A stretch of DNA of 64,000 nucleotides, from IMG/VR virus record IMGVR_UViG_3300025723_000013; one strand, 5' to 3'. Shown piece after piece: positions 11,264 to 45,449 of the stretch. Position numbers and translations under genes: made by a program. The DNA is from a virus. Lineage: Duplodnaviria > Caudoviricetes. The notes below the pieces were generated by a model. That model did no database searches. It saw nothing but the letters and a program-made list of their open reading frames with translations, and had not been told where the DNA came from. How positions within the stretch are numbered: position 1 is the first letter of the stretch; each line of letters begins with the position of its first letter.

Positions 11264-11584
11264 TTAGACGTCTAATGGTTCATCATCGGCAGCAGCATCC
11301 AACTGTGCTGGTTTCATCAGACCAGCTATTTTTCTCACACGATCCAGTTCATCTGTTTCATGTGGTTTGTCATCATAGACACTGGGTACATCCACTGATT
11401 TTTTTAGTAGTTCAATCTTGCTCTGTAGAGGAGGCACAAACACTTCGGCCTCGGTGTTGTCCTCATTGTCTACAGCTACAGGAGTGAGTTCAATCACTGA
11501 TGTATTAACCGGCGCAGCAGGTGGCTGCTGTTCAACCGAAGCCACCATGTCTGCCAATGCTCTCATCAATTCTGAAACTTTCAT
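11264..11584 (-). CDS. Small acidic protein (MKVSELM leader); paralog of 8110-8397
   Basis: 106 aa ORF overlapping stop of upstream gene; shared PPLQ motif. Confidence 0.75.
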   Translation of the reverse strand: MKVSELMRALADMVASVEQQPPAAPVNTSVIELTPVAVDNEDNTEAEVFVPPLQSKIELLKKSVDVPSVYDDKPHETDELDRVRKIAGLMKPAQLDAAADDEPLDV

Positions 11585-13824
11585 TAACTCATAGCCTCCT
11601 GCCCAACTAGATTTGCACCAACCACTGGATTGGTTCCACTAGGGGCACTGACCGCCACTGTCAATGTGTCCACAGCGCTGCCTCGTATGTTGTTGTACAA
11701 GGGGAAGAAGTAGCCAAAGTCTAGATCTTGCACTCCTGATCCGCTGGACAACACAAACGCAAACACCACTTCGCCGCCTGTCAAAGCGGTAGCGGAAACA
11801 TCACGTTCTGCGAATGAATATACCGATCCCAAATACTGCGCTGCGTTAAAATTAGAACCAGTCAGCACGGTTGGGTTGGTAGGTGTGCTGGAAACTAATT
11901 CTATCAACACCTGAGTGTTGGCACTTTGTGACACCAACAATCGTTTGGGCAAGATTTGTCCGCGATTGCTGAGTCCAATTATGTAGCCGGTATTGAAGGT
12001 CAATGTGCCTGAAATTTGTGCAACCGCAGGTAGATTTGTAGTGATGGTGTTACCACTGATCACAGTGACCTGCGATCCTGCTGCCACGCCGGTACCTGTC
12101 ACACTCATGCCCACCGTTACTCCGGTAACAGAGCCCAATGTGGCAGTGTAGGAACCGGAGGCTCCTCCTGAACTGTAAGACTGTGTTACTGGTGATGTTA
12201 GAATAGTGGGTGTGGCCGGCAGCGGTCCTTGGAACACAGGGTCACACCAATACAGTGTGTTGGTGGTATTGTAGGTCACACGTCCTATAGCACCTGATCC
12301 CCAAATGCTGGTAAATGTCAAAGATCCATTTGAGATGTTGGCAGTTAGGGGTGCACCCAATGTCACCGAGTTGGTGCTGACACTGGTCACAAACACAGGA
12401 GATCCGCTGGTGTTGATACCGGAGCCGGTAACAATGGCATTCACGCTGATGCCCACTGTGGTGGTGCTGCTGGCCGTGGTGTTACCCAAAACTCCATTAA
12501 TTCCGCCGCTCACTGTGGTTACTGTTTGGTATCCATTGTTGGGGAAATAAATCTGTCGACCCAACCACTGATTGGCAGTGAATGGGCTGCCAGTCACTGT
12601 CATGTATTGTCCACTACCTGTAAACACCACCGGACTGGAGACAGATCCCACAGTCTGGCTGTTATTTACTGTCCATGTGGTGGAACTGATGTTGCCCGTG
12701 ATAACTGTATAAGGAGTGACCAATCCATTGTTACTGCCCGAAGACGGTCCAATGCCTATTATGGTCGTGCCTGTGGCGATAGCTCCTGAACCGGTGGATA
12801 TTACAGTCAGCGTGGTGTTGGAAATGTAGCCAGTAAAGGTGCTGGATAGCAATCCAGTGGCTGTGGCCGCCGAGCCTGCGTCATTGCGTCCGTAGATATT
12901 GCCATATTCTTGTGTGCCCATCTGTCGTCCGCGTATGGTCAATATGGGTCGACGTGTCACCGGAGCAGTGAGAGTGGTGGTAGGAGCTGTGTTGGGCAGT
13001 CCATACGAGTAGGTGAAACCACGCTGTTCGTCTCGCAAACCTTCGATAATGATTGACACACCATAGTGATACATGTCATTGAGCACAGTGGTGCCTGTTA
13101 AATTGCGTTGTTCATAGCGCACAGGCAAATTGCCAGTTCTGGCCCAAGGAGTGGTTTGATATCCTCCACTGAGAGGATTGCCATAATTTCCCCAACCAAT
13201 CTGATGCGCGATCACAGGTTCGCCGTCGATCCAAAAACCAAAACGTGTAGCGCCTGCTCCATACCATGCATACTCAATCCAAAACATTTGAATATTGGTA
13301 AAATTGAGTTTATTAATATTAACAGTATCTCCGTTCCATTTATCTAGACCCACACGGGTTTCTTGTACCGAGCCGCCCACGTCGGACCTAACAACCACGT
13401 ACATTCCGTAGGGATTGCCTCCATAAGGTTGTCCCTGTTCAAAAAATACGCCGTTGGCGTCATCAAAAAATCCCACACGCTGCACATTGCCCGACAGTGC
13501 TGTTCCAAAACATAATCCAGTGGCCATAAACATGGTTTTGCCTGGTTGATAACGATGATAAGGTCGACTTTGACGTATGGTCACATCTCCTGAACTGGTA
13601 CCCACACGCATACGCACACCGCCTGAACTGGGGATTTGTTGTATGCTACTTACTCCATCGGCGGTCTGAACCAACTGTTCCCAGCGCAAGGGCTGTGTAC
13701 CATATTCAAAATCAGCTTCATACACGTTTTGGTGTATGGATACTTTTAATCTGCCCAAGACATCGCGCACACGTTGCGGCATTGCTGTGGAATATGGATA
13801 ACCTGTTGTTGCGTTGCTGGCCAT
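11584..13824 (-). CDS. Large virion structural protein
   Basis: 746 aa; globular N-terminal part (RQSRPYHRYQPGK, RVGFFDDANGVFFE) followed by T/S/G-rich beta repeats. Confidence 0.7.
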   Translation of the reverse strand: MASNATTGYPYSTAMPQRVRDVLGRLKVSIHQNVYEADFEYGTQPLRWEQLVQTADGVSSIQQIPSSGGVRMRVGTSSGDVTIRQSRPYHRYQPGKTMFMATGLCFGTALSGNVQRVGFFDDANGVFFEQGQPYGGNPYGMYVVVRSDVGGSVQETRVGLDKWNGDTVNINKLNFTNIQMFWIEYAWYGAGATRFGFWIDGEPVIAHQIGWGNYGNPLSGGYQTTPWARTGNLPVRYEQRNLTGTTVLNDMYHYGVSIIIEGLRDEQRGFTYSYGLPNTAPTTTLTAPVTRRPILTIRGRQMGTQEYGNIYGRNDAGSAATATGLLSSTFTGYISNTTLTVISTGSGAIATGTTIIGIGPSSGSNNGLVTPYTVITGNISSTTWTVNNSQTVGSVSSPVVFTGSGQYMTVTGSPFTANQWLGRQIYFPNNGYQTVTTVSGGINGVLGNTTASSTTTVGISVNAIVTGSGINTSGSPVFVTSVSTNSVTLGAPLTANISNGSLTFTSIWGSGAIGRVTYNTTNTLYWCDPVFQGPLPATPTILTSPVTQSYSSGGASGSYTATLGSVTGVTVGMSVTGTGVAAGSQVTVISGNTITTNLPAVAQISGTLTFNTGYIIGLSNRGQILPKRLLVSQSANTQVLIELVSSTPTNPTVLTGSNFNAAQYLGSVYSFAERDVSATALTGGEVVFAFVLSSGSGVQDLDFGYFFPLYNNIRGSAVDTLTVAVSAPSGTNPVVGANLVGQEAMS

Positions 13825-14702: not shown

Positions 14703-17700
14703 TCAATATGTAATAACGATCACAATGCCAGGAGATCCTGCTCCGCCTGGGCCAGATCCACCAGCGGCCTGTGTACTGTTGCTGCGTGAAGCTCCTCCGC
14801 CTCCTCCGCCAGCTCCATATCCTCCTGCTGCACCTCCTATGATATTTTGATTTCCGAATGTGCCGCTTGTACTGGTATAAGCGCCACCACCGCCACCACC
14901 GCCACCGCCAATTAATCCATACGTTGTCTGAATGTAGGTCGGTGTGTTACCAGTGACTACAGGATAAGTTCCATTTCCGTTTGGCCCATATCCTCCGCTT
15001 CCATAAGCTAAACCTGAATTGACATTGGTGGTTAATCCGCCCGAAGCAATCAGTATGGCAGTAGTAGACGATGCTCCTGACGGAGAACCGGAATAGTATA
15101 CTGCAGGCACTCCACCGTTTCCTCCATTGTCGCCAACTCCGTTGACAAATCCTCCGCCTGCTCCGCCTGCTCCGCCCAGATAAGGCGCTCCGGAATTGGG
15201 TACATTGGCCACACTGGTTCCGGTGCCGGCTGTGCCTCCGCCTATGGCAGTACTAGTGCCGCCGGCCAGTCCCAGAGCAAGATTGCCTCCTGAAGTGGCA
15301 GCAGTTTGGGTTGACTGAGATCCACCAATGACCCCACCTTTACCTCCTGCTCCGCCTGCGGCCAAGATGGTTATTCCTTGCCACGAGAAAGAGGAATCAC
15401 CGCCCACTGATCCAGTATATCCGGTTCCAGAACTAACTCCTGACACCTGAGTAGCTCCTGGTCCTCCATATCCTACTATGATGGTTGCTGTGGTCTGATT
15501 ACTATTGCTAACTCCCAAATCCAACATGGACCAACAGGCAGAATTTCCCCCGTTTCCACCGTACACTGTGGCGGTTGTGCTCCATTTAGCTCCACTTCCT
15601 CCTCCTCCTCCGCCACCGCACATGATCACACGCCCTCCATTCCACGTGGCAGGCCAATTGTAGTTATAAGTGCCAGGAGTATTGTAAATTGAAACACTAT
15701 TTGACAATTGATAATTCTGCGCAGAAATCAGTATCCATCCTGGTCCATTTAAGTTTTGATTGTAGTCATAGACCAAAAATGCGCTTCCTCCTGCAAGAAT
15801 CGTCACCCCGTTTGGAGTTCCACTGTTGATAGTGGCTCCATAGGTGGGTGAGATACGGGCCAGATTTATAGTATAACCACTACTATAGTTATTGATTACT
15901 AGAAAAGAAGAATTAGTGGGCGGAGGTGCTATACCTTGTATGGTAACATTGGCAAAACTAGATTTTATATCCCAAATCATGCAATTAGCTCCGGTGGCCG
16001 TGGAGCTACCAGAAACTGGAATATAATTGTCAACACTGCTAGGCCCGCTTATTGCCGAGCCAAAAAGATATCCCACAGTGGCAGTGGTCATTCCGGGCAC
16101 AGCGTAGTTAAGTGTTGCCGTGGAAGATGCGTTGGTCAATGTCATCTTGTAGTAGGTTGAACTGGTGTTTGGATTTGCAAACACAACATTATACTGGCCA
16201 CTGGTGTAAGACCATCCTGTGGGATAGGCAGTAGAGCTCAGTGTCACATTGGTTCCCGACACACTGGCAAATGTGATTTGTGGTTGATTATTAAAAGTAT
16301 AAGTGTCAACCAAACTGTTACTAAACTTGGTCAATCCACCTGATATCTGTGTGACCGTAGTGGTATTTGATCCAGCAGTTGGAGTTGTAACGTCACCGGT
16401 CAATGGACCAAATGTGGATCCTCCGGTGGATGTGCTCACGGCGTATCCATTCACGTACACGTTGGTGGCTGTGATCACACCACCCACTACTAGTCCGCCT
16501 CCAATGCCCGCCCCGCCTGCCACAGTCAATGCGCCGGTAGTGGTGGAAGTGGTGGCACTGGTGCCATTTATCACATGATTGGTGCTGGTTACAGTGCCCA
16601 CAACATACAATCCATTACCTATGCCAACACCGCCGGCCACAGTCAATGCACCTGTTGTGGAAGAAATACTGGTTAGGGTGCTCAGTATCTGTACCGCAGC
16701 CGTGGTACTGGTTGATAGCAACAGTATATCTGAAGTACTGCTGTTTGCATTGAGCACAAAGTGCACGTTGTTGTTATTGTAGGTACCAATGGTTAGATCA
16801 CTGCCCACTGACTCCAAGAAGCTGGCACCGGGCAAGCTGAAGCTGTTGTTGGCATATCCGGCAGCTGAATAACTGTAGTTGGTGCTGTTAACACCCATTT
16901 CCATGTAGTTATTGAATCCGTTATTGGCCACTTCGTAGCTGGCATAGGCCGTGTTGGTGCTGTTGTTGTTGATCAGGGTTATATTGCTGTAAGTGGTATC
17001 GCTGCCAGCAAATGTGGCAATTTGTCCAGTGTAGCTGTTGACGTAATTGCCCACATTCAATGCACCCTGACTGGATGTGGTATTGGATTGATAATTGACC
17101 ACATTCAATATACCGCCCACATACATGTTTGATCCCACCGAATGACCACCGGTTACTATCAATGCGCCGGTAGTGGTTGACGTGGAATTGGTAGTATTTG
17201 ATATGGTGATAGCATTGTTGGTAGATGATCCATACCCAGTGACTGCTTGCAAAGTCACTGAGGCAGTGTTCAGTGCCCAGGTCACTGTGCCGTTGGCGCT
17301 TTGCGTGATTGTGATACCAGTAGAACTACTGTAAACAGGAGTCACTGTCCACCAGTTGCTAGTGGTTTTGGCCACAATTGCCAAGGTGGCATAGGACGGC
17401 AGTGATGTAGCAGTGTTAACTGGGCTATTTTCAATAGATGCTCCTACCGCTGGATAAACATTGACACTGCCTGCGGTTGCATTGGTGATGCTGATTTCAC
17501 GTCCAACCACAGCCGTGGGCAGTATAATACCTCCTGTTCCGGTGGTTACATAGGTGTTGTCTGCTGTAATTAAAGCAGCAGTGGCCTGATTGGTTCCAGT
17601 GGCTGTTATGTTGGCTGAAGAAAATATCAATGGTCCGTTCAATGTTGCAGTATTGGTGACTGTTAATGCATATACAGTAATTGCAGTATTGGCCGTTATC

Positions 17701-20700
17701 GAAGTAGCGCTTACCGCGATAGCTACCAATGTAGCAGTGTTAAAAGTTCCTGTGCTCACAGCATAGCCATTGACATAAACGTTGGTGGCAGTGATCACGC
17801 CGCCCACGTATAATCCGCCGCCAACACCCACCCCGCCCACCACTTGTAATGCTCCTGTAATGGTAGAGGTTGAACTCAGCGTGCTGCTTATGACAACTGC
17901 ACTGGATGGATTCCATGCTGTTGACTGCACTGTGCTGTCTGGAAATGTTATTGTACCTGTGGTTCCGTTATTGCTAAATGTCCAGCTACTGGTGGTTCCA
18001 TTGTAGGTTGATTGCAACTGTATGGAAGCAGTGTTGGCCGAGCTGGCTATGTTATTTGGCACAGTCAGCAATCCATTCGATAAACTTAAAGTCACAGTGT
18101 ATGTGCCGGCAATTAGTGAACTGGTGGAAGCAAAACCTCCCGAACCACTGCCTGTGCTCACAGCATAGCCATTGACATAAACGTTGGTGGCAGTGATCAC
18201 ACCACCTACATACAATCCGCCGCCTATGCCTGCACCGCCCACCACTTGCAGTGCTCCGGTAGTGGTTGATGCGGCGGCACCTGTGCCAATAACAATATGA
18301 TTGGTACTTGTTACCGTGCCTCCAACATACAGTCCGCCACCCACACCCACACCGCCTGTTACCTGCAGCGCGCCTGTGTTGGTGGATGTTGTGACCGTGA
18401 CATTGGTAATGGTCAAAATGCTAGCGAAAGGATTGGTGAACGATCCAGAGCTTCCTGTATATCCGATTGATCCCACATAGCCCGTACCGGTACCGCTTGC
18501 TCCTTGCGATCCCACAAATCCAACGGATCCTGTATATCCAACGCTTCCAACAAATCCGATGCTTCCTACAAATCCAACAGATCCAGTATATCCAAAGGAT
18601 CCAGTATATCCAATGCTTCCTACAAATCCAACGGATCCTGTATATCCAATAGTGCCTGTTGTTCCCTGAGATCCCACAAATCCAACGGATCCTGTATATC
18701 CAACGCTTCCAACAAATCCGATGCTTCCTACAAATCCAACAGATCCAGTATATCCATTAGTGCCTGTTGTTCCTTTAGATCCAGTGTATCCTAGAACTCC
18801 TAAGCTACTGGTAGTAATCCAGGTAGCAGTGATGCCATTGCTTTGTAACAGAGTTCCAGTTGATCCTATCGAAATAAATCCAGTTAGTCCTCCGGCAATT
18901 TGATATGGAATACTGCCTGCGGCTCCGCCGGCAATGTTAACAGCGTTGACCGAATTGGTAACCAGTGTTGCTGTGTTAAAATTGCTAGCTGTTGTTGCTA
19001 TTTGAGCACTAACAGCATTGGTAACCAAGGTACTTGTATTAAATGATTGCGCATAACCACTGGTGGTAGCAAATGAACTAGTAGTGGCGTTGACTGCATT
19101 GGTCATAAGAGTGGCAGTGTTCAGTGCCCAGGTCACTGTGCCGTTGGCGCTTTGCGTGATTGTGATGCCGGTGCTGGCATTGTAAACAGGAGTCACAGTC
19201 CACCAATTGCTAGTGGTTTTGGCCACAACTGCCATGGTGGCATAGGATGGCAGCAGTGTTGGAATATTTGCTGCACTGTTTTCAATATTGGTTCCGGTTG
19301 AAGGATACACATAGATTGACGATGCAGTGGCATTGGTTATGCTGATTTCTCTACCAACCACCGGCACTGGTAATACTACTCCGCCTGTGCCTGCAACAAT
19401 GTAGGTGTTATCGCCCACAATCGCAGCAGCCGTGGCTTGATTGGTACCTGTGGCTGTGATGTTTGCAGAACTGAATATTATTGGTCCGCCAAATGTGGAA
19501 GTACTTGATACCACCAACGAGGTGGAAGTAACCAAGCGTGAAGTGACTGTGGTAGCGTTGATGCCGGCAAATGTAACATTACTGCTGGTTGCTATAGCTT
19601 GCGGAGTGGTTAAAATTACCGATCCTGTATTTGCGCTCACATAAACCTGATTCACAGTGCCATTGATAAAACTCACGCCATTGATGATGTTTGTGGCAGT
19701 CGTGGCATAAGCAGCATATGTCGAGTTAACCGCATTTGCTATCAGCGTGCCTGTTCCCAACCATGCAGTGACCTGAGTGCTGCCGTCTGCAAAGGCCAAG
19801 ACACCAGGCAGTTGCACGGTGCCAGTGGCATTGGAAGTGATCACATTCTGCGTGCTGGTTCCAGTGCCCACACTTATGGTATTGGTAGCAGTGTTAATCG
19901 TTAGAGGAACTCGGCCAATAAAGACAGTATTAGTGCTGACATAAAGGCTTTTCCATTGCAGAGATGGACTGCCTAGATTGTAAGTTGTATCAACTGCGGG
20001 CAGTAGATCAACATTGATATTTTGAAAGTTCACAGTGCTGTTGGACCAACCCAAATTGCCTAACCCGTCGGTGTATAGGTATTGACCCGGAGTGCCTGCT
20101 GTGGCCGGAAAAGTGTAATTGGGAAACTGTGTGCTGCCGTTTTGATTAAATTGCCAAGTGTTTGAACCCACTGTGGACAATATGCTGGTACCTGTTCCGT
20201 TGGCCACAGTCAAAGCTGTGGCAAATGCGCCGGGGGAAGAAAACAACGTACTGGTTGTAAGCGTGGCTGTGGTCACAATCACAGTGAGAGTAGTGGCATA
20301 CACAGTTAAATTGGAAGCATAAGAGCTTACCACATTGGTCAAGGTGGCGTCGGTATAGGTGAATCTCCCATAATGTCCAATCAAACTGCCATCGGTAGGA
20401 AACTGTGATATCAGGGCTTTGTAGTGATTATTTTTCCATACGGTAGAAGTGTTATTGGTATTGTTCACACGAGTAACACCAACCACTGTTAGGCTGTTGC
20501 CAAATACCGAAATTACAGAGTGCCCTTGTCCTGGACCGGTATTTGGTATTTGAGATACAGCGTTGGTATTGGTAGCTGTGCTGCCCAATAGTCTGGAAAA
20601 AACAAAACTACCTGTTGAGCTGTATTTTGTTACAGCAATATAGGTATTTAATCCAGCCCGCATTATGCCACTGGCATATAAATTATTTTGACTATCTACA

Positions 20701-21866
20701 CCCAATCCCCATCCGTATCCAGCAGACGGCGGAGACATGATATTGCTCCAAATCAAGCTGCCAGTAGAACTGTATTTTGATACTATTTGCCCAGTATAAG
20801 AACCGTTGCTGCTGCTTATATAAAGATTATTATTGGAATCACAAACAATATCATAGCCGGTAAGTGGACCAAATACACTGTTATCCACTGTTCCTGTTTG
20901 CCACAGTATATTACCATATGGTCCAAATTTAGCCAGAAACTGTACCAGTCCTGCCGTTGTATCTGTTACCAAACCGGTGCAATAAACATTGCCTTGAATG
21001 TCGGTGGTTATACCATATTGGGAATACTGCGAGCTGGTAGTTGATAAATTTTGTTGCCAATACAGCGATCCGGAACTGGTGTATCGAGCTAGATACAAAG
21101 AGTTATTGCTCAACAAAGACCCAACCACATAAATGTTGCCAAAACAGTCAGTGGCAATGTCACTTATGACTGCGCCTGTTACAGTTTCAGTCTGCCATTG
21201 CAAATTACCATTGAGATCAGTGGCCACCACAAAATAGGTACCAGTGCCGGTTGATTCACTAATGGTAAAATAAAGATTGGTTTGATTGACAGTGATGGCA
21301 TCGCCGGTTTTGACATAACCATCAATGTTGTTGTAACTGTTTTGCCAAACTACCTGACCAGCAGGATTGAATTTGACGAGGTTTACTGTGCCTTGCGTTA
21401 TATCTCCGCCAACCACATAAACATTACCGTAATTGTCGTAGGTCACACTGGATGCATACACACGATCGGTATCTGTGACCAAATCACCATATTCCGTTAT
21501 CCAGTAATTGCCACTGTTGGCAGAAGAAGTCAGTGTGATATTTCCCAAGCTGTTGATAGCGCCGGGCACAGTTAATACCCCGCTGCTGCCATTGAAGATC
21601 CATGTGTTTGAGGCCGTGGTTAGATGGTTAACGGCTGTTATTTTCAGTCCAGCTGCGGTGTCATTGATGGTGGAGCCTTGAGGCAGAATCAGCTGCCCAG
21701 TGGCAGTAAGGACCACGGTGTAAGTTCCATTGGCCAATCCATAATTGAGTGTTTGACCATTCAGCGCGGCAAAATTGCTGTTGATCTTGGAAAAAGCCAA
21801 TCTAAGAACATCGCCATTGTGCGAATTTGGGCTGGTACCGGTGTTGACATATTGAAACTGAATCAT
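14703..21866 (-). CDS. Giant tail fibre/adhesin (beta-propeller, collagen-like and glycine-rich domains)
   Basis: 2387 aa; repeated D..GN.Y..G / KY.S.G.L.WQ propeller blades, GFVGS/GYTGS tract, several GALxVxGGxGIGG modules, C-terminal GGGGGGG-rich domain. Confidence 0.85.
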   Translation of the reverse strand: MIQFQYVNTGTSPNSHNGDVLRLAFSKINSNFAALNGQTLNYGLANGTYTVVLTATGQLILPQGSTINDTAAGLKITAVNHLTTASNTWIFNGSSGVLTVPGAINSLGNITLTSSANSGNYWITEYGDLVTDTDRVYASSVTYDNYGNVYVVGGDITQGTVNLVKFNPAGQVVWQNSYNNIDGYVKTGDAITVNQTNLYFTISESTGTGTYFVVATDLNGNLQWQTETVTGAVISDIATDCFGNIYVVGSLLSNNSLYLARYTSSGSLYWQQNLSTTSSQYSQYGITTDIQGNVYCTGLVTDTTAGLVQFLAKFGPYGNILWQTGTVDNSVFGPLTGYDIVCDSNNNLYISSSNGSYTGQIVSKYSSTGSLIWSNIMSPPSAGYGWGLGVDSQNNLYASGIMRAGLNTYIAVTKYSSTGSFVFSRLLGSTATNTNAVSQIPNTGPGQGHSVISVFGNSLTVVGVTRVNNTNNTSTVWKNNHYKALISQFPTDGSLIGHYGRFTYTDATLTNVVSSYASNLTVYATTLTVIVTTATLTTSTLFSSPGAFATALTVANGTGTSILSTVGSNTWQFNQNGSTQFPNYTFPATAGTPGQYLYTDGLGNLGWSNSTVNFQNINVDLLPAVDTTYNLGSPSLQWKSLYVSTNTVFIGRVPLTINTATNTISVGTGTSTQNVITSNATGTVQLPGVLAFADGSTQVTAWLGTGTLIANAVNSTYAAYATTATNIINGVSFINGTVNQVYVSANTGSVILTTPQAIATSSNVTFAGINATTVTSRLVTSTSLVVSSTSTFGGPIIFSSANITATGTNQATAAAIVGDNTYIVAGTGGVVLPVPVVGREISITNATASSIYVYPSTGTNIENSAANIPTLLPSYATMAVVAKTTSNWWTVTPVYNASTGITITQSANGTVTWALNTATLMTNAVNATTSSFATTSGYAQSFNTSTLVTNAVSAQIATTASNFNTATLVTNSVNAVNIAGGAAGSIPYQIAGGLTGFISIGSTGTLLQSNGITATWITTSSLGVLGYTGSKGTTGTNGYTGSVGFVGSIGFVGSVGYTGSVGFVGSQGTTGTIGYTGSVGFVGSIGYTGSFGYTGSVGFVGSIGFVGSVGYTGSVGFVGSQGASGTGTGYVGSIGYTGSSGSFTNPFASILTITNVTVTTSTNTGALQVTGGVGVGGGLYVGGTVTSTNHIVIGTGAAASTTTGALQVVGGAGIGGGLYVGGVITATNVYVNGYAVSTGSGSGGFASTSSLIAGTYTVTLSLSNGLLTVPNNIASSANTASIQLQSTYNGTTSSWTFSNNGTTGTITFPDSTVQSTAWNPSSAVVISSTLSSTSTITGALQVVGGVGVGGGLYVGGVITATNVYVNGYAVSTGTFNTATLVAIAVSATSITANTAITVYALTVTNTATLNGPLIFSSANITATGTNQATAALITADNTYVTTGTGGIILPTAVVGREISITNATAGSVNVYPAVGASIENSPVNTATSLPSYATLAIVAKTTSNWWTVTPVYSSSTGITITQSANGTVTWALNTASVTLQAVTGYGSSTNNAITISNTTNSTSTTTGALIVTGGHSVGSNMYVGGILNVVNYQSNTTSSQGALNVGNYVNSYTGQIATFAGSDTTYSNITLINNNSTNTAYASYEVANNGFNNYMEMGVNSTNYSYSAAGYANNSFSLPGASFLESVGSDLTIGTYNNNNVHFVLNANSSTSDILLLSTSTTAAVQILSTLTSISSTTGALTVAGGVGIGNGLYVVGTVTSTNHVINGTSATTSTTTGALTVAGGAGIGGGLVVGGVITATNVYVNGYAVSTSTGGSTFGPLTGDVTTPTAGSNTTTVTQISGGLTKFSNSLVDTYTFNNQPQITFASVSGTNVTLSSTAYPTGWSYTSGQYNVVFANPNTSSTYYKMTLTNASSTATLNYAVPGMTTATVGYLFGSAISGPSSVDNYIPVSGSSTATGANCMIWDIKSSFANVTIQGIAPPPTNSSFLVINNYSSGYTINLARISPTYGATINSGTPNGVTILAGGSAFLVYDYNQNLNGPGWILISAQNYQLSNSVSIYNTPGTYNYNWPATWNGGRVIMCGGGGGGGSGAKWSTTATVYGGNGGNSACWSMLDLGVSNSNQTTATIIVGYGGPGATQVSGVSSGTGYTGSVGGDSSFSWQGITILAAGGAGGKGGVIGGSQSTQTAATSGGNLALGLAGGTSTAIGGGTAGTGTSVANVPNSGAPYLGGAGGAGGGFVNGVGDNGGNGGVPAVYYSGSPSGASSTTAILIASGGLTTNVNSGLAYGSGGYGPNGNGTYPVVTGNTPTYIQTTYGLIGGGGGGGGGAYTSTSGTFGNQNIIGGAAGGYGAGGGGGGASRSNSTQAAGGSGPGGAGSPGIVIVITY

Positions 21867-36139: not shown

Positions 36140-36373
36140 ATGAATTGGAACTTGGAAGGTTTGATTGTGCGTGGTCGCTATCTTGGACAGCATCCGGTGC
36201 AGGGTCACGTGGTGTTGTCACGCACCAAGTACGGAAGTGGCATTGATCATCATGTGGTGTTGGATCATCCACTGGATCTTTTTGGCAGCTGCCGCGATCG
36301 AGTGGTGCTAGCCCATCATCACGTGGATCAGGTGTTGCAGAATCACTCCAAGGAGTGGGTACGTCATGGATAA
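36140..36373 (+). CDS. Hypothetical protein
   Basis: 77 aa, GGAG SD after TATAAT. Confidence 0.7.
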   Translation: MNWNLEGLIVRGRYLGQHPVQGHVVLSRTKYGSGIDHHVVLDHPLDLFGSCRDRVVLAHHHVDQVLQNHSKEWVRHG

Positions 36374-36569
36374 AGATCAACAAATCAAACAGCTTCGCGA
36401 ATCACAAATGGTGCTGTATCTCGAAAATGCCACACTCAAAAGCCGTTGCCACGAGATGGAAGAGCGTATCGCTCACTTGGCCCAGGCCTTGGATATTGCC
36501 ATCCAAGCACTAGAAACTGCCAAGGCCACTTTTGAACAGGCCTTGCAGGCCGCTGATCAATCTAGATAA
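36366..36569 (+). CDS. Small coiled-coil protein
   Basis: 67 aa, AAGGAG SD. Confidence 0.7.
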   Translation: MDKDQQIKQLRESQMVLYLENATLKSRCHEMEERIAHLAQALDIAIQALETAKATFEQALQAADQSR

Positions 36570-36660
36570 AAGCTCACTTTAAACGTTCTGGTAGCGAATC
36601 AGTCAGTTAAGCCAGCAGCCGGCTACATAACCTTATAACGGTCCTAAGGCATGTTCTTTG
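36568..36660 (+). ncRNA. Candidate ncRNA mimicking 23S rRNA helix 69-71
   Basis: GGTAGCGAA 36590-36598, CAGCAGCCG 36613-36621, TATAACGGTCCTAAGG 36634-36649 between convergent genes. Confidence 0.55.
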
Positions 36661-36667
36661 ATGTTTG

Positions 36668-37393
36668 TCAGCAGTGCCATTTTCTCAATGATTTATTGAT
36701 ACGACTGTTGGGATCATGAGCTGTCTTGGCTGATGTGCGATGTTTTTTCATGCCCTTCATGCGAGCGCAAAAACTCTTGCGTCGTTTGGAGGCCTTGCTG
36801 CCTTTCTTGAGCTTGCCGGGCTTGGTAGTGACCGCGGTCTGCAATTTGCTGCCGGGATGTTGTCTGCGGTAGCTGGCCACGCCCTTCTTGTTGAGCCCGC
36901 CGTTTTTGTTCTTGCCAGATTTCTTTTGCCATGCCGCAGCTTCATCCAGATGACTGCCTTCACGTGGGGCGAACGCAACATCTGCCACGTCTGCGATTCG
37001 TATGTGTTTCAGACCAGTGGTTCCGTGAGATCTAGCAGCCCAGTATCCTTGATTGTGCAGATGCTGCATCACATAGTAGAGAAATTTGGGATCAATTTTG
37101 TCACCGGCAGTGACCTTGACGCCCATGTATTGAGGCTGATATTGTGTGACTGGTCGGCCCACCTGTTGTTGGCTGCCTTTGCGTATGATCCAAAAGTCCG
37201 CATTGGGCATGTGCGTGGCCACCAAAGCCAAATCACGCAGGTACATGCCCGACGATTCCTTGACACTGCGATTGGGCACACAGTTATTGACTCGCACGCC
37301 GCCCTTGATCTTGGTGCCCTGTTTGTGCATGCCTGACCAGCACTTGGCATCCAATCTGGTTTTAACCTCACCCACGAATTCTTGAGCTCTCAT
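36668..37393 (-). CDS. Modular basic protein (MRAQEFVGE leader; CW..G..NNCVP module; HsdS-TRD-like middle; DUF6321-like C-terminus)
   Basis: Modules separated by VKES and LDEA; IDPKFLYYVM...SHGTT.LKHI middle; AWQKKSGKNKNGGLN...RKSFCARM...KW.C end. Confidence 0.7.
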   Translation of the reverse strand: MRAQEFVGEVKTRLDAKCWSGMHKQGTKIKGGVRVNNCVPNRSVKESSGMYLRDLALVATHMPNADFWIIRKGSQQQVGRPVTQYQPQYMGVKVTAGDKIDPKFLYYVMQHLHNQGYWAARSHGTTGLKHIRIADVADVAFAPREGSHLDEAAAWQKKSGKNKNGGLNKKGVASYRRQHPGSKLQTAVTTKPGKLKKGSKASKRRKSFCARMKGMKKHRTSAKTAHDPNSRINKSLRKWHC

Positions 37394-37606: not shown

Positions 37607-38548
37607 TCACTGACCAAACTGAGTGGTGATCACACGACCATGCAGATCTTGTGCATGCAAGGGCAACTGTTCAATCACAAAGGTTCTCTGCAGCCATCGA
37701 TCGTTGCCATCAAAGCGTGGCTGATAGGCACTGCGTCCATGCACTGCCCGCGCATTGTCAATGATCAAGAGATCGCCTGATGTGAGATTGATTTCACTGT
37801 GACACTGAGCCACCGCACGGCCCAGTTCATGTAGGGCCTGATCAGCAGCAGGATCAGTGCCTACCATGAGATCCTCATCAAACACCATGACAGGATCATG
37901 GGGCGTGGTCAATACCGCCATGGGTGGGCCCAACTGATTGGCTCTGCCATTCAAGAAGCTTTGATCTATGGCCGTACGGAATCTGGGTTCAAACAAGATT
38001 CTCTGTGTGGCCCGGCTCAGGTGCGGCCACACCTGATTGATTGAGCACAGCGTGGTCATGGCTCGTTCATCTCCCCTCAAGCACAGCAGGGCCAGATAGG
38101 CCGGACGATAGGGATGAAAGGCCGTTTCGGTATGAAACATGAGTGGCACCAGACTGGATGTGCTGGTTTGGGCATGCTGATTGGCACGAGTTGGCACCAG
38201 ATTCTGCACCAAACGGCCGCCCAATTCAGGTTCATAGCCCACGGGTTCACCCAGCAGGCTGGCCACGGCCAACAGAGTGCGTTCGCTGATCAAATCTTTG
38301 CTAGTGGGCTCAGTGGGTGAGGAGGGAGTTCGCGGCACTGCTCCCACTGGCAAGCCTCGCATCAGCAGCGCACCACTGGGGTGGCTGTGCCTGCGAAACT
38401 GAGCCACTGCGTGAGTGATCTCAGCAGGCAGATGAGCACGCCAGTCCCGAGCCTGGGCCATGAACTGGGCGCTATCCAGTGGCTCCTGCAGGGGCAGCGG
38501 GCCTGGATCCGGTGCTGGGCACGTCAAGGTGAGGGGTGCTAGATGCAT
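37607..38548 (-). CDS. Fe(II)/2-oxoglutarate dioxygenase, clavaminate synthase/AsnO-like (TauD family)
   Basis: FHTETAFHP (HxE facial triad), LLCLRGD, DLLIIDNARAVHGR, RWLQR. Confidence 0.88.
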   Translation of the reverse strand: MHLAPLTLTCPAPDPGPLPLQEPLDSAQFMAQARDWRAHLPAEITHAVAQFRRHSHPSGALLMRGLPVGAVPRTPSSPTEPTSKDLISERTLLAVASLLGEPVGYEPELGGRLVQNLVPTRANQHAQTSTSSLVPLMFHTETAFHPYRPAYLALLCLRGDERAMTTLCSINQVWPHLSRATQRILFEPRFRTAIDQSFLNGRANQLGPPMAVLTTPHDPVMVFDEDLMVGTDPAADQALHELGRAVAQCHSEINLTSGDLLIIDNARAVHGRSAYQPRFDGNDRWLQRTFVIEQLPLHAQDLHGRVITTQFGQ

Positions 38549-38838: not shown

Positions 38839-39065
38839 AACGCATACGGATCACAGTGGATGAATTCAATCAGTTGGTGGCTCGATATGACCAAACAGTG
38901 GCCGCACAAGAGCCCCTGCTGCAACCCGGGCTGTACACTCGCGGCCTGCTGGGGCACTATGGCATCAAGACGTTCAAATACCTGTCAGCTCTGGGCTTGG
39001 TTCGCTTGGAATTTGTGAGCGAGCCCGCTGCCACTTGGTTTGCGCTGCGACATGTTGGCTCGTGA
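38835..39065 (+). CDS. Small hypothetical protein; paralog of previous gene
   Basis: C-terminal EPAATWFALRH; ATGA overlap. Confidence 0.7.
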   Translation: MKRIRITVDEFNQLVARYDQTVAAQEPLLQPGLYTRGLLGHYGIKTFKYLSALGLVRLEFVSEPAATWFALRHVGS

Positions 39066-39105
39066 TCAGCACATCAAAAATCTACACACATTAAATAAGT
39101 TCACT

Positions 39106-39702
39106 ATGGATAAACACAGAATAATTCAAGAAATGCATGCTCTTCCGTCGGCCTGGACCGGACATTTGGAATTTGCTCAATGGCTGGTTGATCGTGTGCG
39201 ACCAACCACCACTGTGGATCTGGGTGTGGATTACGGGTTCAGCCTGTTTGCCTTGGCTCTTGGCGGTCAAGGCACTGTGTACGGTGTAGACAGTTTTGAG
39301 GGCGATATTCATGCTGGTTACCATCCTGATGCCTACCGTATGGTAAGCAATTTCCAACAGCGCCATGCCTTTGATCATGTGCAGTTGATACGGTCATGGT
39401 TCACACCCTTGGCCCAAAAATGGCTGCTGCCAATTGACATACTGCACATCGACGGATTGCACACCTATTCGGCCATCACCGAGGATTGGCAAAATTGGTC
39501 AAAATTCGTGCCCGCCACTGGAGTGGTGATCATGCATGATGTGATCAGTTTCCCTGCCGATGTGGGTCGTTTTTACAATGAACTGCCTTTGCCCAAGGCC
39601 TATTTTGAACACAGTGCCGGACTGGGCATCGTGACATGGAATGTGAGATTACTGGAGGACATCTTGAGAGCCTTTCCTCAGGCACGTGTGGGCCCTGTGT
39701 GA
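39106..39702 (+). CDS. Class I SAM-dependent methyltransferase (Methyltransf_24-like)
   Basis: VDLGVDYGFS, YGVDSF, IDILHIDGLHTY, GVVIMHD. Confidence 0.85.
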   Translation: MDKHRIIQEMHALPSAWTGHLEFAQWLVDRVRPTTTVDLGVDYGFSLFALALGGQGTVYGVDSFEGDIHAGYHPDAYRMVSNFQQRHAFDHVQLIRSWFTPLAQKWLLPIDILHIDGLHTYSAITEDWQNWSKFVPATGVVIMHDVISFPADVGRFYNELPLPKAYFEHSAGLGIVTWNVRLLEDILRAFPQARVGPV

Positions 39703-39737: not shown

Positions 39738-40193
39738 ATGCTGCTGCGTGAATTACTGGACCGTCCTTACCCTGTTGCCTTGGATGACCCCGACGCCGCC
39801 GACGCGGCCTATCGAGCCGTTTGGATCTGGAGATTCACCACAGATCAGGGCGATCAAGGCGAAGTCACCATAACTCGCAGTTTGATGCACAGCCGGACTT
39901 CAGTGAAATACAGCATCAACGGCAGCCGGGATAGACCCAATCGAGATCAACTCCGTCCCAACAGCATGAGAATCTTCAGCTCGGTGTTGGCCGCTCTCAG
40001 ACACTACTGGAGCCTCAACCCTGCCAATCAAACCCAGACCCTGGAATTTGTGGGCAGCCACAGCGATCCCAAAAGACTGGCGTTTTATGATCGCATGGCT
40101 CAGCAGCTGGGTCGGTGGATTCCCTACAGACTGGTGAGCACACAGGATCATCCAGACGATTACAAGAAGTATGTGTTGGCCCGGATCCGTTAG
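39738..40193 (+). CDS. Hypothetical protein (MLLRELLDRP leader); related to 52820-53233
   Basis: Shared MLLRE.[LF]DRP start and F.T.QG motif; ATAAATA box 39724-39730. Confidence 0.7.
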   Translation: MLLRELLDRPYPVALDDPDAADAAYRAVWIWRFTTDQGDQGEVTITRSLMHSRTSVKYSINGSRDRPNRDQLRPNSMRIFSSVLAALRHYWSLNPANQTQTLEFVGSHSDPKRLAFYDRMAQQLGRWIPYRLVSTQDHPDDYKKYVLARIR

Positions 40194-41413
40194 GCAGCGG
40201 AGCCTGATTGTTTTTGTTGGGCATAGGCCTGCTTGAGTGCTTGCAGCACACGACGGATACAGTCCGGTCTAGTTTGCGTTTTCTGCCATTCATCCTCCCA
40301 AATCACCACCAAGGTAAAGCCTTTCTGGCGCAGATATTCTTCTTTTTCTTGATTTAGTCGTCTACGTTCGCCTGCCGTTTTTCCAACTTTGGGTAACGGG
40401 GTGTTGTCGTCCTGGAATCGTAAGGGGTTGGCATGGTAAAGATCGCCATAATACTCCACGATCATGGGAGGATCTTCTATGAATAGATCGATTTTGTATG
40501 AATCTCCGTGACGGCCGCCAGTGGGGATTGGTACAGAGTGTTGAGGGTTCAGCGGTTGAATTTCGGGTAGCTGTGAGATTGTTTCAAAAAAATGTATTTC
40601 ACCTTGACTGCGCTGATGTACTTTTTGATTTTTTTTATAGTCTTGATGTAAAAGATCATAATCTGGCAGGTTTTTTAGGTGTCTTCTAATAGTTCCACGA
40701 TCTCGATCAATTCTTAAGCTGATATATCCAGGATTATAGCCCTGCTGATACAATTCGCGTATTTCATGATCTTGTTGCACAGTGAACGACCTTTTTTCTC
40801 GTTTTTGCCTAGCCTTAAACTGCCTATCGACAACAGCAGATACACTGGGTATTGATCTATTTTTCTCACGAGCGATCTTAGCGATGGACCAGTTATATTC
40901 GCCCTCGGGATCATAGTGACTTCGTATGAATTCTTCATCGTCGGGAGTGAACGACCTTTTTTCTTGTTTTTGCCTAGCCTTAAACTGCCTATCGACAACA
41001 TCAGATACACTGGCCGCTAATCTATTTAACACACCAGCGATCTTAGCGATGGACCAGTTATATTCGCCCTCGGGATCATAGTGACTTCGTATAAATTCTT
41101 CATCGTCGGGAGTGAACTCTTGATAGGGTCGTTTGAGTTCCTGATCAAGATAGCGATGGATCAGGACATAACTCTTTCCTAACTGTTTAGCAATGGCCGC
41201 TGCATTTAATCCCTGTTTGGCCAAGTGATTGATAAGAAAATAGTTCTTTATGGTTTGCTCGGTTGTACCAGCACCCAGTTGGTAATCGTGGATGAGATCT
41301 TGCAGTATGTGGTGATCACTGTGATGCTGAGCTCGCAGTTGGCGCATGCGTGCTCTCTGTTGAACAGTAAACCCTCGAAACGCTTCTTGAATGAATAATT
41401 CACGTAATAGCAT
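40190..41413 (-). CDS. Tandem-HTH DNA-binding protein with C-terminal Vsr/DUF559-like PD-(D/E)XK endonuclease
   Basis: Four FT......R..Y......IA..L.R HTH-like units; C-term KIDLF..VEYYGDLYH...KEEYLRQKGFTLVVIWEDEW; ATAAATA-N5-ATG. Confidence 0.8.
   Translation of the reverse strand: MLLRELFIQEAFRGFTVQQRARMRQLRAQHHSDHHILQDLIHDYQLGAGTTEQTIKNYFLINHLAKQGLNAAAIAKQLGKSYVLIHRYLDQELKRPYQEFTPDDEEFIRSHYDPEGEYNWSIAKIAGVLNRLAASVSDVVDRQFKARQKQEKRSFTPDDEEFIRSHYDPEGEYNWSIAKIAREKNRSIPSVSAVVDRQFKARQKREKRSFTVQQDHEIRELYQQGYNPGYISLRIDRDRGTIRRHLKNLPDYDLLHQDYKKNQKVHQRSQGEIHFFETISQLPEIQPLNPQHSVPIPTGGRHGDSYKIDLFIEDPPMIVEYYGDLYHANPLRFQDDNTPLPKVGKTAGERRRLNQEKEEYLRQKGFTLVVIWEDEWQKTQTRPDCIRRVLQALKQAYAQQKQSGSAA
40781..41117. 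repeat. 165-bp tandem duplication (55-aa HTH unit)
   Basis: agtgaac.. recurs at 40781, 40946, 41111 with high DNA identity. Confidence 0.9.
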
Positions 41414-45374: not shown

Positions 45375-45449
45375 GGGATCGTAGCTCAGAGGTAGAGCAA
45401 TCGGCTTTTAACCGATTGGTCGAGAGTTCGAATCTCTCCGGTCCTACCA
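45375..45449 (+). tRNA. trnK: tRNA-Lys(UUU)
   Basis: GGGATCG/CGGTCCT acceptor, TAGCTCAG D-arm, ATCGG-CTTTTAA-CCGAT anticodon arm, GTTCGAATC T-loop, encoded CCA. Confidence 0.95.

What the first reader, a model, noticed from the sequence alone, without database searches (positions are those of the whole stretch)
36568..36660. Intergenic element rebuilding 23S rRNA helix 69-71 in permuted order
Known: bacterial 23S contains AAGCCCC..AAACGGCGGCCGTAACTATAACGGTCCTAAGGTAGCGAAAT (H69-H71, intersubunit bridge B2a region). Seen in ~90 nt between convergent genes: GGTAGCGAA (36590-98) closed by a CTG/CAG stem, AAGCC-AGCAGCCG (36609-21), then GCTACA-TAAC-CT-TATAACGGTCCTAAGG (16-nt exact match at 36634-49). 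The H69 pairing GCCG/CGGT (36618-21/36639-42) is preserved either as an enlarged-loop H69 or as a loop-loop contact between AGCC/GGCT and ACAT..CCTTA/TAAGG..ATGT hairpins. A lone 16-mer match is unremarkable (order 0.1 expected), but three blocks from one rRNA segment within 60 nt is not. Inference: an rRNA-mimic RNA acting as decoy or ligand for factors that read H69 (RRF, release factors, RluD/RlmH, ribosome-targeting defence nucleases) or binding the 30S interface. Best candidate for an undescribed system.
Basis: partly seen in the sequence, partly recalled or inferred. Interest (0 to 1): 0.85.

Follow-up and report, generated by a model that had tools for sequence, protein, structure and literature searches.

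The report
Phage RNA element matching 23S rRNA
The 90-nt spacer is one copy of a large, undescribed family of pseudoknotted RNA elements in uncultured phages. Its two invariant loops together spell 18 contiguous bases of the 23S rRNA helix 69-70 junction, most likely as the complementary (antisense) strand, so it may pair with the host's large ribosomal subunit RNA.

Summary
The core observation is real. TATAACGGTCCTAAGG (36634-49) and GGTAGCGAA (36590-98) are E. coli 23S nt 1915-1930 and 1929-1937, in permuted order.

The spacer belongs to a family found in more than 270 IMG/VR phage loci by three independently anchored scans. Covariation is strong: 21 of 24 pairs show double changes and 84.5% of cells pair, against 60% when shuffled. 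The fold is a long hairpin P1 with apex GUAGCGAAU, a 4-bp hairpin P2 whose loop forms a covarying pseudoknot, and a closing helix P3 around an optional hairpin P4 and the single-stranded CGGUCCUAAGG.

Other members carry further 23S domain IV pieces (1827-36, 1938-42, 1964-78). No Rfam family, paper, cultured relative or bacterial genome matches, apart from three MAG contigs.

Flanking genes lie on the opposite strand (176 of 181 downstream), and the element starts 2-14 nt after a stop codon there. P1 interior mismatches are A.C 12 against G.U 1 on the rRNA-sense strand. The pseudoknot loop lengths fit only the complement.

My best reading is an RNA antisense to 23S nt 1920-1937. A sense-strand mimic or decoy remains the main rival. 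Function is untested.

The parts
36570..36662 (-). Whole RNA element (about 93 nt). The strand call is probable, not certain.
   Evidence: CM R1 hit 36570-36659, 75.9 bits, E 9e-16. Strand.
36639..36649 (-). Conserved single-stranded block L1: CGGTCCTAAGG on +, CCUUAGGACCG on -. It matches 23S nt 1920-1930; in this copy the match extends to 36634 (nt 1915).
   Evidence: G at -1 in 104 of 109 and C at -2 in 81 of 109 unanchored positions. Exact rRNA match. Predicted duplex with 23S -20.3 kcal/mol, or -26.2 for the window's 16-mer.
36590..36600 (-). P1 apex L2: GGTAGCGAATC on +, GAUUCGCUACC on -. It matches 23S nt 1929-1937.
   Evidence: GUAGCGAAU is nearly invariant in 79 of 109 apexes of a set not anchored on it, and the flanking pair covaries G-C/A-U.
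36582..36608 (-). P1 hairpin: 36582-84 pairs with 36606-08, and 36588-92 with 36598-602, around a 3x3 internal loop.
   Evidence: Single-sequence fold. Family helices 1 and 2: 10 of 10 pairs have double changes.
36610..36624 (-). P2 hairpin: AGCC (36610-13) pairs with GGCT (36621-24), with the 7-nt loop AGCAGCC (36614-20).
   Evidence: Helix 3 is 97.6% paired with GC/CG/AU swaps.
36572..36580 (-). Pseudoknot strand GCTCAC plus TTT (AAAGUGAGC on -), which pairs with the P2 loop. Only GCU/AGC is complementary in this copy.
   Evidence: Covarying partners in other subfamilies: GCUACU/AGUAGC, GCCACU/AGUGGC, CCCCCA/UGGGGG, UCUACC/GGUAGA, GCUGCU/AGCAGC and others.
36625..36654 (-). P3 closing helix: ACAT (36625-28) pairs with ATGT (36651-54), plus CC (36631-32) with GG (36648-49). 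It encloses a degenerate P4 (ACC 36630-32 / GGT 40-42) and L1.
   Evidence: Folds. Helix 4 has 4 of 5 pairs with double changes.
36668..37393 (-). Preceding gene on the minus strand (241 aa, DUF6321). Its TGA stop at 36670-36668 lies 18 nt before L1.

Best explanation
The spacer encodes one member of a large, undescribed family of ~95-nt pseudoknotted RNA elements of uncultured tailed phages (T4-like or jumbo by their DNA polymerase). The element is most likely transcribed from the window's minus strand, as the tail of the preceding gene's transcript. A variable, covarying scaffold (P1, P2 with an H-type pseudoknot, P3, optional P4) displays two invariant unpaired segments: CCUUAGGACCG, in the P3/P4 internal loop, and AUUCGCUAC, the 9-nt P1 apex. 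Together they are perfectly complementary to 18 contiguous bases of bacterial 23S rRNA, nt 1920-1937. That stretch is the 3' strand of H69 plus the H69-H70 joining strand, at the base of intersubunit bridge B2. Other members carry complements of neighbouring domain IV strands. Shown here: the family exists, its fold covaries, it matches rRNA, it is restricted to phages, and it has a fixed position and orientation after stop codons. Inferred: the RNA pairs with 23S rRNA through these two loops, probably on immature or free 50S particles where H68-H71 are exposed. The consequence is unknown. Plausible outcomes are a block of late 50S maturation or subunit joining, tethering of a 50S, or shielding of that site.
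For: Family and fold. Three scans with different anchors returned 78, at least 120 and 114 loci. 100 of 100 loci from the second scan hit CM R1 at E<1e-3, one hit each. Covariation: 84.5% of cells paired against 60.1% shuffled, 21 of 24 pairs with double changes, score 0.462 against 0.146 shuffled and at most 0.062 slid. The pseudoknot partners covary. rRNA relation. Positions not fixed by the anchors are still rRNA-identical: GUAGCGAAU in 79 of 109 and CGGUCCUAAGG. UAGCG occurs in 59 of 74 members of the third set, against ~10% by chance. Extra modules map to 23S nt 1827-36, 1938-42, 1964-69 and 1968-78. Strand. The gene on the 3' side of the rRNA-sense reading is on the opposite strand in 176 of 181 cases (median gap 10 nt). 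The gene on the 5' side is opposite in 159 of 190. On the complement, the element begins 2-14 nt after a stop codon in about 100 of 120 cases, behind unrelated genes. Isolated interior mismatches in P1 are A.C 12 against G.U 1 on the sense strand, which means G.U on the complement; P4 gives 3:0. No promoter signal lies at a usable distance on the sense strand. Pseudoknot stereochemistry (established Pleij-type rules). The 0-2 nt connector would have to cross the shallow groove of a 5-7 bp helix on the sense strand. On the complement it crosses the deep groove, and the conserved AAA lies in loop 3. Predicted loop-rRNA duplexes are -20.3 and -10.9 kcal/mol.
Against: No transcript data were available, so strand, ends and expression are all inferred. 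P3 shows more G.U than A.C on the sense strand (9:2; terminal pairs). The P1 apex has an invariant G.U on the sense strand. MFE shows no strand preference. A looser count in P1 is only 50 A.C against 33 G.U. Many loci share ancestry, so the orientation counts are not fully independent. The target nucleotides are largely buried or paired in mature 50S, so access would need immature or free subunits. Members that carry both strands of an H67-like helix and an H69-like hairpin are explained at least as naturally by mimicry. No benefit to a phage of pairing with 23S rRNA has been demonstrated.
Confidence: 0.45

Rival explanations
1. Sense-strand rRNA mimic or decoy. The plus strand is an independent small RNA. 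It rebuilds, in circularly permuted connectivity, the core junction of 23S domain IV: an H67-like P3, an H69-like P4, the junction strand CCUAAGG, and GUAGCGAA presented on P1. It titrates something that recognises that surface, such as a ribosome-targeting nuclease or toxin, an rRNA modification or assembly factor, or the 30S platform at bridge B2.
For: Helices of rRNA correspond to helices of the element, and joining strands to loops. UGACGCCUGC pairs with GGCGU(U)AA as in H67. The P4 consensus matches H69 at about 20 of 24 positions, directly 5' of CCUAAGG. There is an invariant G.U at the P1 apex and a G.U excess in P3 on this strand. A U-rich stretch follows P3. H69, the base of H68 and H67 form bridges B2a-c (PMC11040002).
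Against: On this strand the element is antisense to both neighbouring genes in most loci. No promoter lies at a usable distance, and the only AT-rich box abuts the pseudoknot strand, so a start from it would exclude that strand. P1 interior mismatches are A.C rather than G.U. The pseudoknot connector lengths are sterically unfavourable on this strand. P4 is missing in many members.
Confidence: 0.25
2. A cis-acting 3'-end element of the upstream gene's mRNA on the minus strand. It could act as a terminator or processing site, as an exonuclease block, or through coupling to translation termination. In the last case the rRNA complementarity would serve only to tether a ribosomal subunit released at the adjacent stop codon, in the manner of the calicivirus TURBS.
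For: The stop codon lies 2-14 nt before the element behind many unrelated genes. The next gene starts about 60-85 nt later, with an AT-rich box in between. The element sits where a transcription unit would end.
Against: There is no hairpin-plus-U-tract terminator on either strand. A purely structural 3' cap would not need loops invariant to the base and matching rRNA. TURBS-type tethering to the large-subunit rRNA is unknown.
Confidence: 0.15
3. A DNA-level or mobile-element remnant, for example rDNA-derived sequence, homing-endonuclease half-sites or a replication signal next to the polymerase gene, with no RNA function.
For: Overall G.U and A.C counts are about equal (67 against 68), as expected if neither strand is selected as RNA. 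The sequence covers the I-CeuI recognition site region of rDNA (own knowledge). The element occurs behind varied genes, which suggests mobility.
Against: A covarying pseudoknot and four covarying helices with conserved unpaired loops are hallmarks of RNA. The two rRNA blocks are separated and permuted, so no contiguous endonuclease site exists (0 hits for a contiguous arrangement is implied). The Rfam LSU model does not recognise the element.
Confidence: 0.07

Closest known systems
Antisense RNAs that recognise targets through exposed loops (CopA/CopT, RNA I/RNA II; YUNR U-turn loops)
   Same: On the minus strand both conserved segments are unpaired, are held on stable stems and begin with YUNR-type tetranucleotides (UUCG, UUAG). 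Their sequence is fixed while the scaffold drifts.
   Different: The apparent target is 23S rRNA, not an mRNA or a replication primer. The two loops address one contiguous 18-nt target in permuted order. No natural anti-rRNA RNA of phages or bacteria is known to me or was found in the literature searches.
Group II intron EBS2/EBS1 recognition of IBS2-IBS1
   Same: Two short guide segments sit in separate loops. The 5' guide pairs with the 5' half of a contiguous target and the 3' guide with the 3' half, the same permuted geometry as here.
   Different: No intron domains, no catalytic core and no reverse transcriptase ORF are present, and the element is only about 95 nt. The comparison rests on my own knowledge of group II introns and is an analogy of geometry only.
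rRNA mimics in ribosomal-protein operon leaders (L1, L10, L20, S8, S15 and others)
   Same: A short RNA reproduces rRNA sequence and structure of a defined rRNA site.
   Different: Those mimics lie in 5' UTRs of ribosomal-protein genes and bind the encoded protein. This element follows unrelated phage genes, no ribosomal-protein gene is nearby, the site (H67-H70 junction) is essentially protein-free in the ribosome, and the strand evidence favours the complement.
Phage RNA decoys and substitutes against host nucleases (pseudo-ToxI, phage tRNAs replacing cleaved host tRNAs)
   Same: A phage-encoded non-coding RNA related in sequence to a host RNA species. Some loci sit near phage tRNA and tmRNA genes.
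   Different: No toxin that cuts 23S at nt 1920-1937 is known, and decoy function requires the sense strand.
Calicivirus/influenza B TURBS and plant-virus 3' elements with rRNA complementarity
   Same: An mRNA element close to a stop codon carries complementarity to rRNA and tethers a ribosomal subunit.
   Different: Those elements pair with small-subunit rRNA in eukaryotes and lie upstream of the stop/start site. Here the match is to large-subunit rRNA and the element lies just downstream of the stop.
I-CeuI homing endonuclease site in rrl (TAACTATAACGGTCCTAAGGTAGCGAA, own knowledge)
   Same: It covers the same rRNA gene positions.
   Different: The site must be contiguous in DNA. Here the halves are 35-50 nt apart, in reversed order and embedded in covarying RNA helices.

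Membership tests
Any Rfam 15 family | Covariance-model match at or near the gathering score, on either strand | tested here: not met
   Nothing reached gathering score at the element. At E<=10 in 36400-36850 only three chance-level hits appeared, two outside the element and one (isrD, 12.8 bits, 36533-36574) touching only its last few bases. Fifteen other loci at E<=1 gave only tRNA and tmRNA hits elsewhere.
Bacterial LSU rRNA gene fragment (RF02541) | Colinear similarity to 23S rRNA recognised by the LSU model | tested here: not met
   No LSU hit in the spacer at E<=10, whereas a 201-nt piece of E. coli rrlH scores 202 bits. The matching blocks are permuted and separated by non-rRNA helices.
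H-type pseudoknotted structured RNA (generic) | A hairpin loop pairs with an external strand, with compensatory changes | tested here: met
   Eleven different complementary partner pairs occur at the same position. Mean best pairing is 4.64 against 4.01 with swapped loops (maximum 4.45 in 200 trials).
Intrinsic (Rho-independent) terminator | GC-rich hairpin followed directly by a U-tract | tested here: not met
   0 terminator-like sites in 36300-36900 on either strand.
Ribosomal-protein leader rRNA mimic | Located in the 5' UTR of a ribosomal-protein gene whose product binds the mimicked site | tested here: not met
   Neighbours are DUF6321, a TauD-like protein, DNA polymerase B, a DsbA-like regulator and others. 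No ribosomal-protein gene is present.
Trans-acting antisense RNA against 23S rRNA (proposed) | Exposed segments complementary to the target | tested here: met
   11 + 8 nt of perfect complementarity to nt 1920-1937, unpaired in all single-sequence folds.
Trans-acting antisense RNA against 23S rRNA (proposed) | Transcribed from the complementary strand as a discrete RNA that binds the target | not testable with these tools
The strand is inferred.
tRNA / tmRNA | Cloverleaf or tRNA-like domain detected by ARAGORN or Rfam | tested here: not met
   The only tRNA in the window is tRNA-Lys at 45375-45449.

The most novel reading that the evidence does not exclude
Uncultured phages encode a dedicated small RNA that base-pairs with the host's 23S rRNA at the H69-H70 junction, the base of bridge B2. 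It uses two loop-presented guides on a pseudoknotted scaffold. Through this pairing it would inactivate, trap or re-purpose 50S subunits or their precursors. This would be the first natural anti-rRNA RNA, or an RNA-guided rRNA-targeting system, in bacteria or phages.
Probability: 0.35. Interest if true: 0.95.

Novelty: categorically new. Interest (0 to 1): 0.85.

Why it matters
No phage or bacterial RNA is known, to my knowledge or in the held literature, that is built to match the large-subunit rRNA. The match would be as an antisense binder, which I think likeliest, or as a mimic. Either reading would add a new way for viruses to manipulate ribosomes. It would also point to the H69-H70 junction as a natural vulnerability of the 50S subunit. 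The result is a compact, evolution-tuned scaffold for addressing rRNA. The family is large (more than 270 loci), has clean covariation and is directly testable with a 95-nt transcript and purified subunits.

Tried and rejected
- RNAalifold on a plain MAFFT alignment of 55 members found no structure because of misalignment. This was replaced by a hand-specified structure and a covariance model.
- BLAST of the spacer against E. coli genomes found nothing because the query is short. The 23S gene was fetched by accession instead.
- Phage isolate collection: there was no near or distant DNA match except a DUF6321 fragment in cyanophage S-SM2. CM R1 found nothing in the complete genomes of Phosso, Atu_ph07, 121Q or S-SM2.
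- Bacterial genomes: the strict pattern gave 0 hits. The looser pattern gave 63 hits, of which 60 are chance and 3 are real, all on MAG contigs.
- Association with tRNA or tmRNA genes holds in only about 11 of 197 loci within 3 kb, so it is not a general feature.
- The promoter idea on the plus strand was rejected: there is no conserved -35/-10 at a usable spacing.
- Strand choice by folding energy was uninformative: 85 members are more stable on one strand and 78 on the other.
- A UAA/GAN internal-loop reading of the two blocks and a boxA reading of GCUCACUUUAA were considered from memory. Both were dropped because the flanks do not fit and because the strand covaries as a pseudoknot.
- The whole genome is not held.

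Full report
**1. What is in the window**

The spacer 36570-36667 lies between the 67-aa ORF 36366-36569 (+) and the 241-aa DUF6321 ORF 36668-37393 (-). The window is phage DNA: it encodes tail-fibre and virion proteins, DNA ligase, DnaB helicase, primase and one tRNA-Lys.

TATAACGGTCCTAAGG (36634-49) and GGTAGCGAA (36590-98) are exact copies of E. coli 23S nt 1915-1930 and 1929-1937 (L159). The 9-mer is unique in the 64 kb on both strands (0.25 expected) and lies 44 nt from the 16-mer. The pair is therefore not chance.

Taken alone, the sequence folds no better than shuffles on either strand. No Rfam family matches it.

**2. A large family**

Two loci fetched through the neighbouring DUF6321 protein carried the same two blocks at the same spacing. 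Three IMG/VR scans with different anchors then returned many more:
- GGTAGCGAATCA..GGTCCTAAGG gave 78 loci.
- GACGCCT..GGTCCTAAGG gave 114 loci.

A covariance model built from 24 members hit every one of 100 second-scan loci exactly once at E<1e-3. It also found divergent members in loci chosen only by the DUF6321 protein.

The family is absent from:
- Rfam, in the window and 15 further loci;
- four cultured phages with the closest DNA polymerases or DUF6321 genes;
- 185,579 bacterial and archaeal genomes, except three MAG contigs (two binned as Haliscomenobacter, one as Lishizhenia), which are probably phage contigs mis-binned. The other 60 pattern hits there are chance matches.

Six literature searches found no description.

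**3. Architecture, written on the rRNA-sense strand**

From 5' to 3' the element has:
- a 5-7 nt strand followed by UUU;
- a long hairpin P1 whose apex is G-GUAGCGAAU-C;
- a 4-bp hairpin P2 with a 7-9 nt loop that pairs with the first strand, forming a pseudoknot;
- a closing helix P3 whose 3' strand starts with the GG of CCUAAGG;
- inside P3, an optional hairpin P4 followed by single-stranded (C)GGUCCUAA.

Single-sequence folds of 55 members give this layout repeatedly. On the model-based alignment of 94 distinct sequences:
- 84.5% of cells pair, against 60.1% in shuffles;
- 21 of 24 pairs show changes on both sides;
- the covariation score is 0.462, against 0.146 shuffled and at most 0.062 with partners slid.

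That alignment is fitted to the model, which favours the structure, but the margins are large. The pseudoknot is supported by at least eleven different complementary partner pairs at the same place.

**4. The rRNA relation is a family property**

In the set anchored only on GCTCACTTT and GTCCTAAGG, the P1 apex is free to vary. It nevertheless reads GUAGCGAAU in 79 of 109 distinct members, and the flanking pair covaries G-C/A-U. The bases before GUCCUAAGG are G (104 of 109) and C (81 of 109).

In the set anchored on GACGCCT and GGTCCTAAGG, 59 of 74 members contain UAGCG, against about 10% expected.

The two invariant blocks share G1930 and together cover 23S nt 1920-1937.

Further members add other domain IV pieces:
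- UGACGCCUGC (nt 1827-36, the 5' strand of H67 including G1835), pairing with GGCGU(U)AA (nt 1972-78, the 3' strand of H67);
- P1 apexes reading GAAUGGCGUUAA or UGGCGUAAC (nt 1968-79);
- P1 apexes reading GGGCACGACUCC with or without CAUUCC (nt 1964-69 and 1938-42);
- some members with UAGCG moved into the P4 loop.

The short modules (GCACGA, AUUCC) are not significant on their own. The 8-10-mers are.

The P4 consensus resembles H69 at about 20 of 24 positions and sits where H69 sits. Its stem register differs, however, and P4 is missing in many members.

**5. Which strand is the RNA?**

This point decides the interpretation and could not be settled by transcript data.

For the complement (the window's minus strand):
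- (a) Among 195 distinct elements, the nearest ORF of at least 100 aa on the 3' side of the sense reading is on the opposite strand in 176 of 181 cases, at a median of 10 nt. On the 5' side it is opposite in 159 of 190. On the complement, the element begins 2-14 nt after the stop codon of the preceding gene in about 100 of 120 cases. Those genes belong to several unrelated families.
- (b) Isolated non-Watson-Crick pairs inside P1, flanked by two Watson-Crick pairs on each side, are A.C 12 against G.U 1 on the sense strand. On the complement these are G.U wobbles. P4 gives 3:0.
- (c) On the sense strand there is no promoter signal, except an AT-rich hexamer that abuts the pseudoknot strand. A start from it would exclude that strand from the RNA.
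- (d) Pseudoknot stereochemistry (established rules, my inference). The 0-2 nt left between the loop pairing and the P2 stem would, on the sense strand, have to cross the shallow groove of a 5-7 bp helix, which is not feasible. On the complement it is loop 1 crossing the deep groove, and the conserved AAA lies at the end of loop 3 next to a 4-bp G-C stem, which is the classical arrangement.

For the sense strand:
- G.U exceeds A.C in P3 (9:2, in helices whose register is less certain) and at terminal pairs.
- There is an invariant G.U at the P1 apex.
- The natural correspondence of helix to helix with H67 and H69 favours mimicry.

Folding energies do not discriminate. Total G.U and A.C counts outside the apex are equal. 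I put about 70-75% on the minus strand.

**6. Most likely mechanism**

On the minus strand, the RNA presents CCUUAGGACCG in an internal loop and AUUCGCUAC as a 9-nt hairpin loop. Both begin with YUNR-type tetranucleotides. They are perfectly complementary to nt 1920-1930 and 1930-1937 of 23S rRNA, with predicted duplexes of -20.3 and -10.9 kcal/mol. The window's copy extends to 16 bp at -26.2 kcal/mol.

The 5' guide pairs with the 5' half of the target and the 3' guide with the 3' half. The two short helices would therefore stack into one nicked 18-bp helix with the scaffold leaving at the nick. This is the same geometry as EBS2/EBS1 of group II introns (own knowledge).

The target is the 3' strand of H69 plus the strand joining H69 to H70. 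H69, the base of H68 and H67 form bridges B2a-c (PMC11040002). In mature 50S much of this is paired or buried. Binding is therefore more plausible on nascent 23S, on late pre-50S particles or on free 50S. This is inference.

What the phage gains is unknown. Possibilities are arrest of host ribosome production or of subunit joining, capture of a released 50S next to the stop codon, or shielding of the site.

**7. Rivals**

The sense-strand mimic or decoy (25%) remains viable and would also be new. A purely cis-acting 3'-end element (15%) and a DNA-level remnant (7%) are less likely, for the reasons given under each rival.

**8. Context and limits**

In about half of the first set, the element lies between a variable gene and a DsbA-like regulator (phrog_639) followed by a T4 gp43-type DNA polymerase. 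The nearest cultured polymerases (41-49% identity) belong to jumbo phages of Sinorhizobium, Agrobacterium and enterobacteria.

Permuted tmRNA or tRNA genes lie within 3 kb in about 11 of 197 loci. Hosts are unknown; the three MAG bins hint at Bacteroidota.

All functional statements are inferences. Counts of sequences are not counts of independent events.

Noticed in passing
L086:1884-2294, L105:1039-1377, L115:460-879 (also L097, L108, L128, L133, L141, L155, L242): Phage contigs that carry the element also encode two-piece (permuted) tmRNA genes 0-4.4 kb away. In L105 the order on one strand is tmRNA, element, tRNA-Thr.
   Followed up: partly
L242:4617-4690: ARAGORN calls a 'tRNA-Pyl' (CUA anticodon, i.e. 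an amber suppressor) next to a tmRNA in one element-bearing phage contig. This may point to stop-codon recoding.
   Followed up: no
window 14703-21866 (-): A 2387-aa ORF with no PHROG match at E<=1e-5. It lies beside virion structural and tail-fibre genes (4109-7366, 11584-13824).
   Followed up: no
window 40190-41413 (-): A 407-aa protein with HTH_38/HTH_23 domains plus weak REase_MTES_1575 and homing-endonuclease matches. It may be a free-standing homing endonuclease or a D5-like regulator.
   Followed up: no
window 37607-38548 (-) and 39040-39702 (+): A TauD/TfdA-family dioxygenase and a Methyltransf_24 protein lie next to the element's neighbour gene. This is unusual auxiliary metabolism for a phage.
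   Followed up: no
window 36668-37393 (-): The DUF6321 C-terminal module (residues ~150-241) is shared by very many phage proteins of different lengths (9 PHROG families; 349 IMG/VR loci). The N-terminal part varies. Earlier scan notes read this ORF as a polyprotein; that was not examined here.
   Followed up: no
window 36533-36574 (-): A GGCCU-GCA-AGGCC hairpin followed by UGUUC lies just after the element on the minus strand, inside the 3' end of the plus-strand ORF (weak isrD-like Rfam hit, 12.8 bits). It may be a minus-strand terminator.
   Followed up: no
L388, L390, L396, L400 and L345, L370, L373, L391: These are divergent relatives. They keep GACGCCU..ACGGUCCUAAGG but have a different 5' half, or carry UAGCG in the hairpin just before GGUCCUAAGG. 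They suggest further subfamilies in which the rRNA-matching modules are shuffled between loops.
   Followed up: partly
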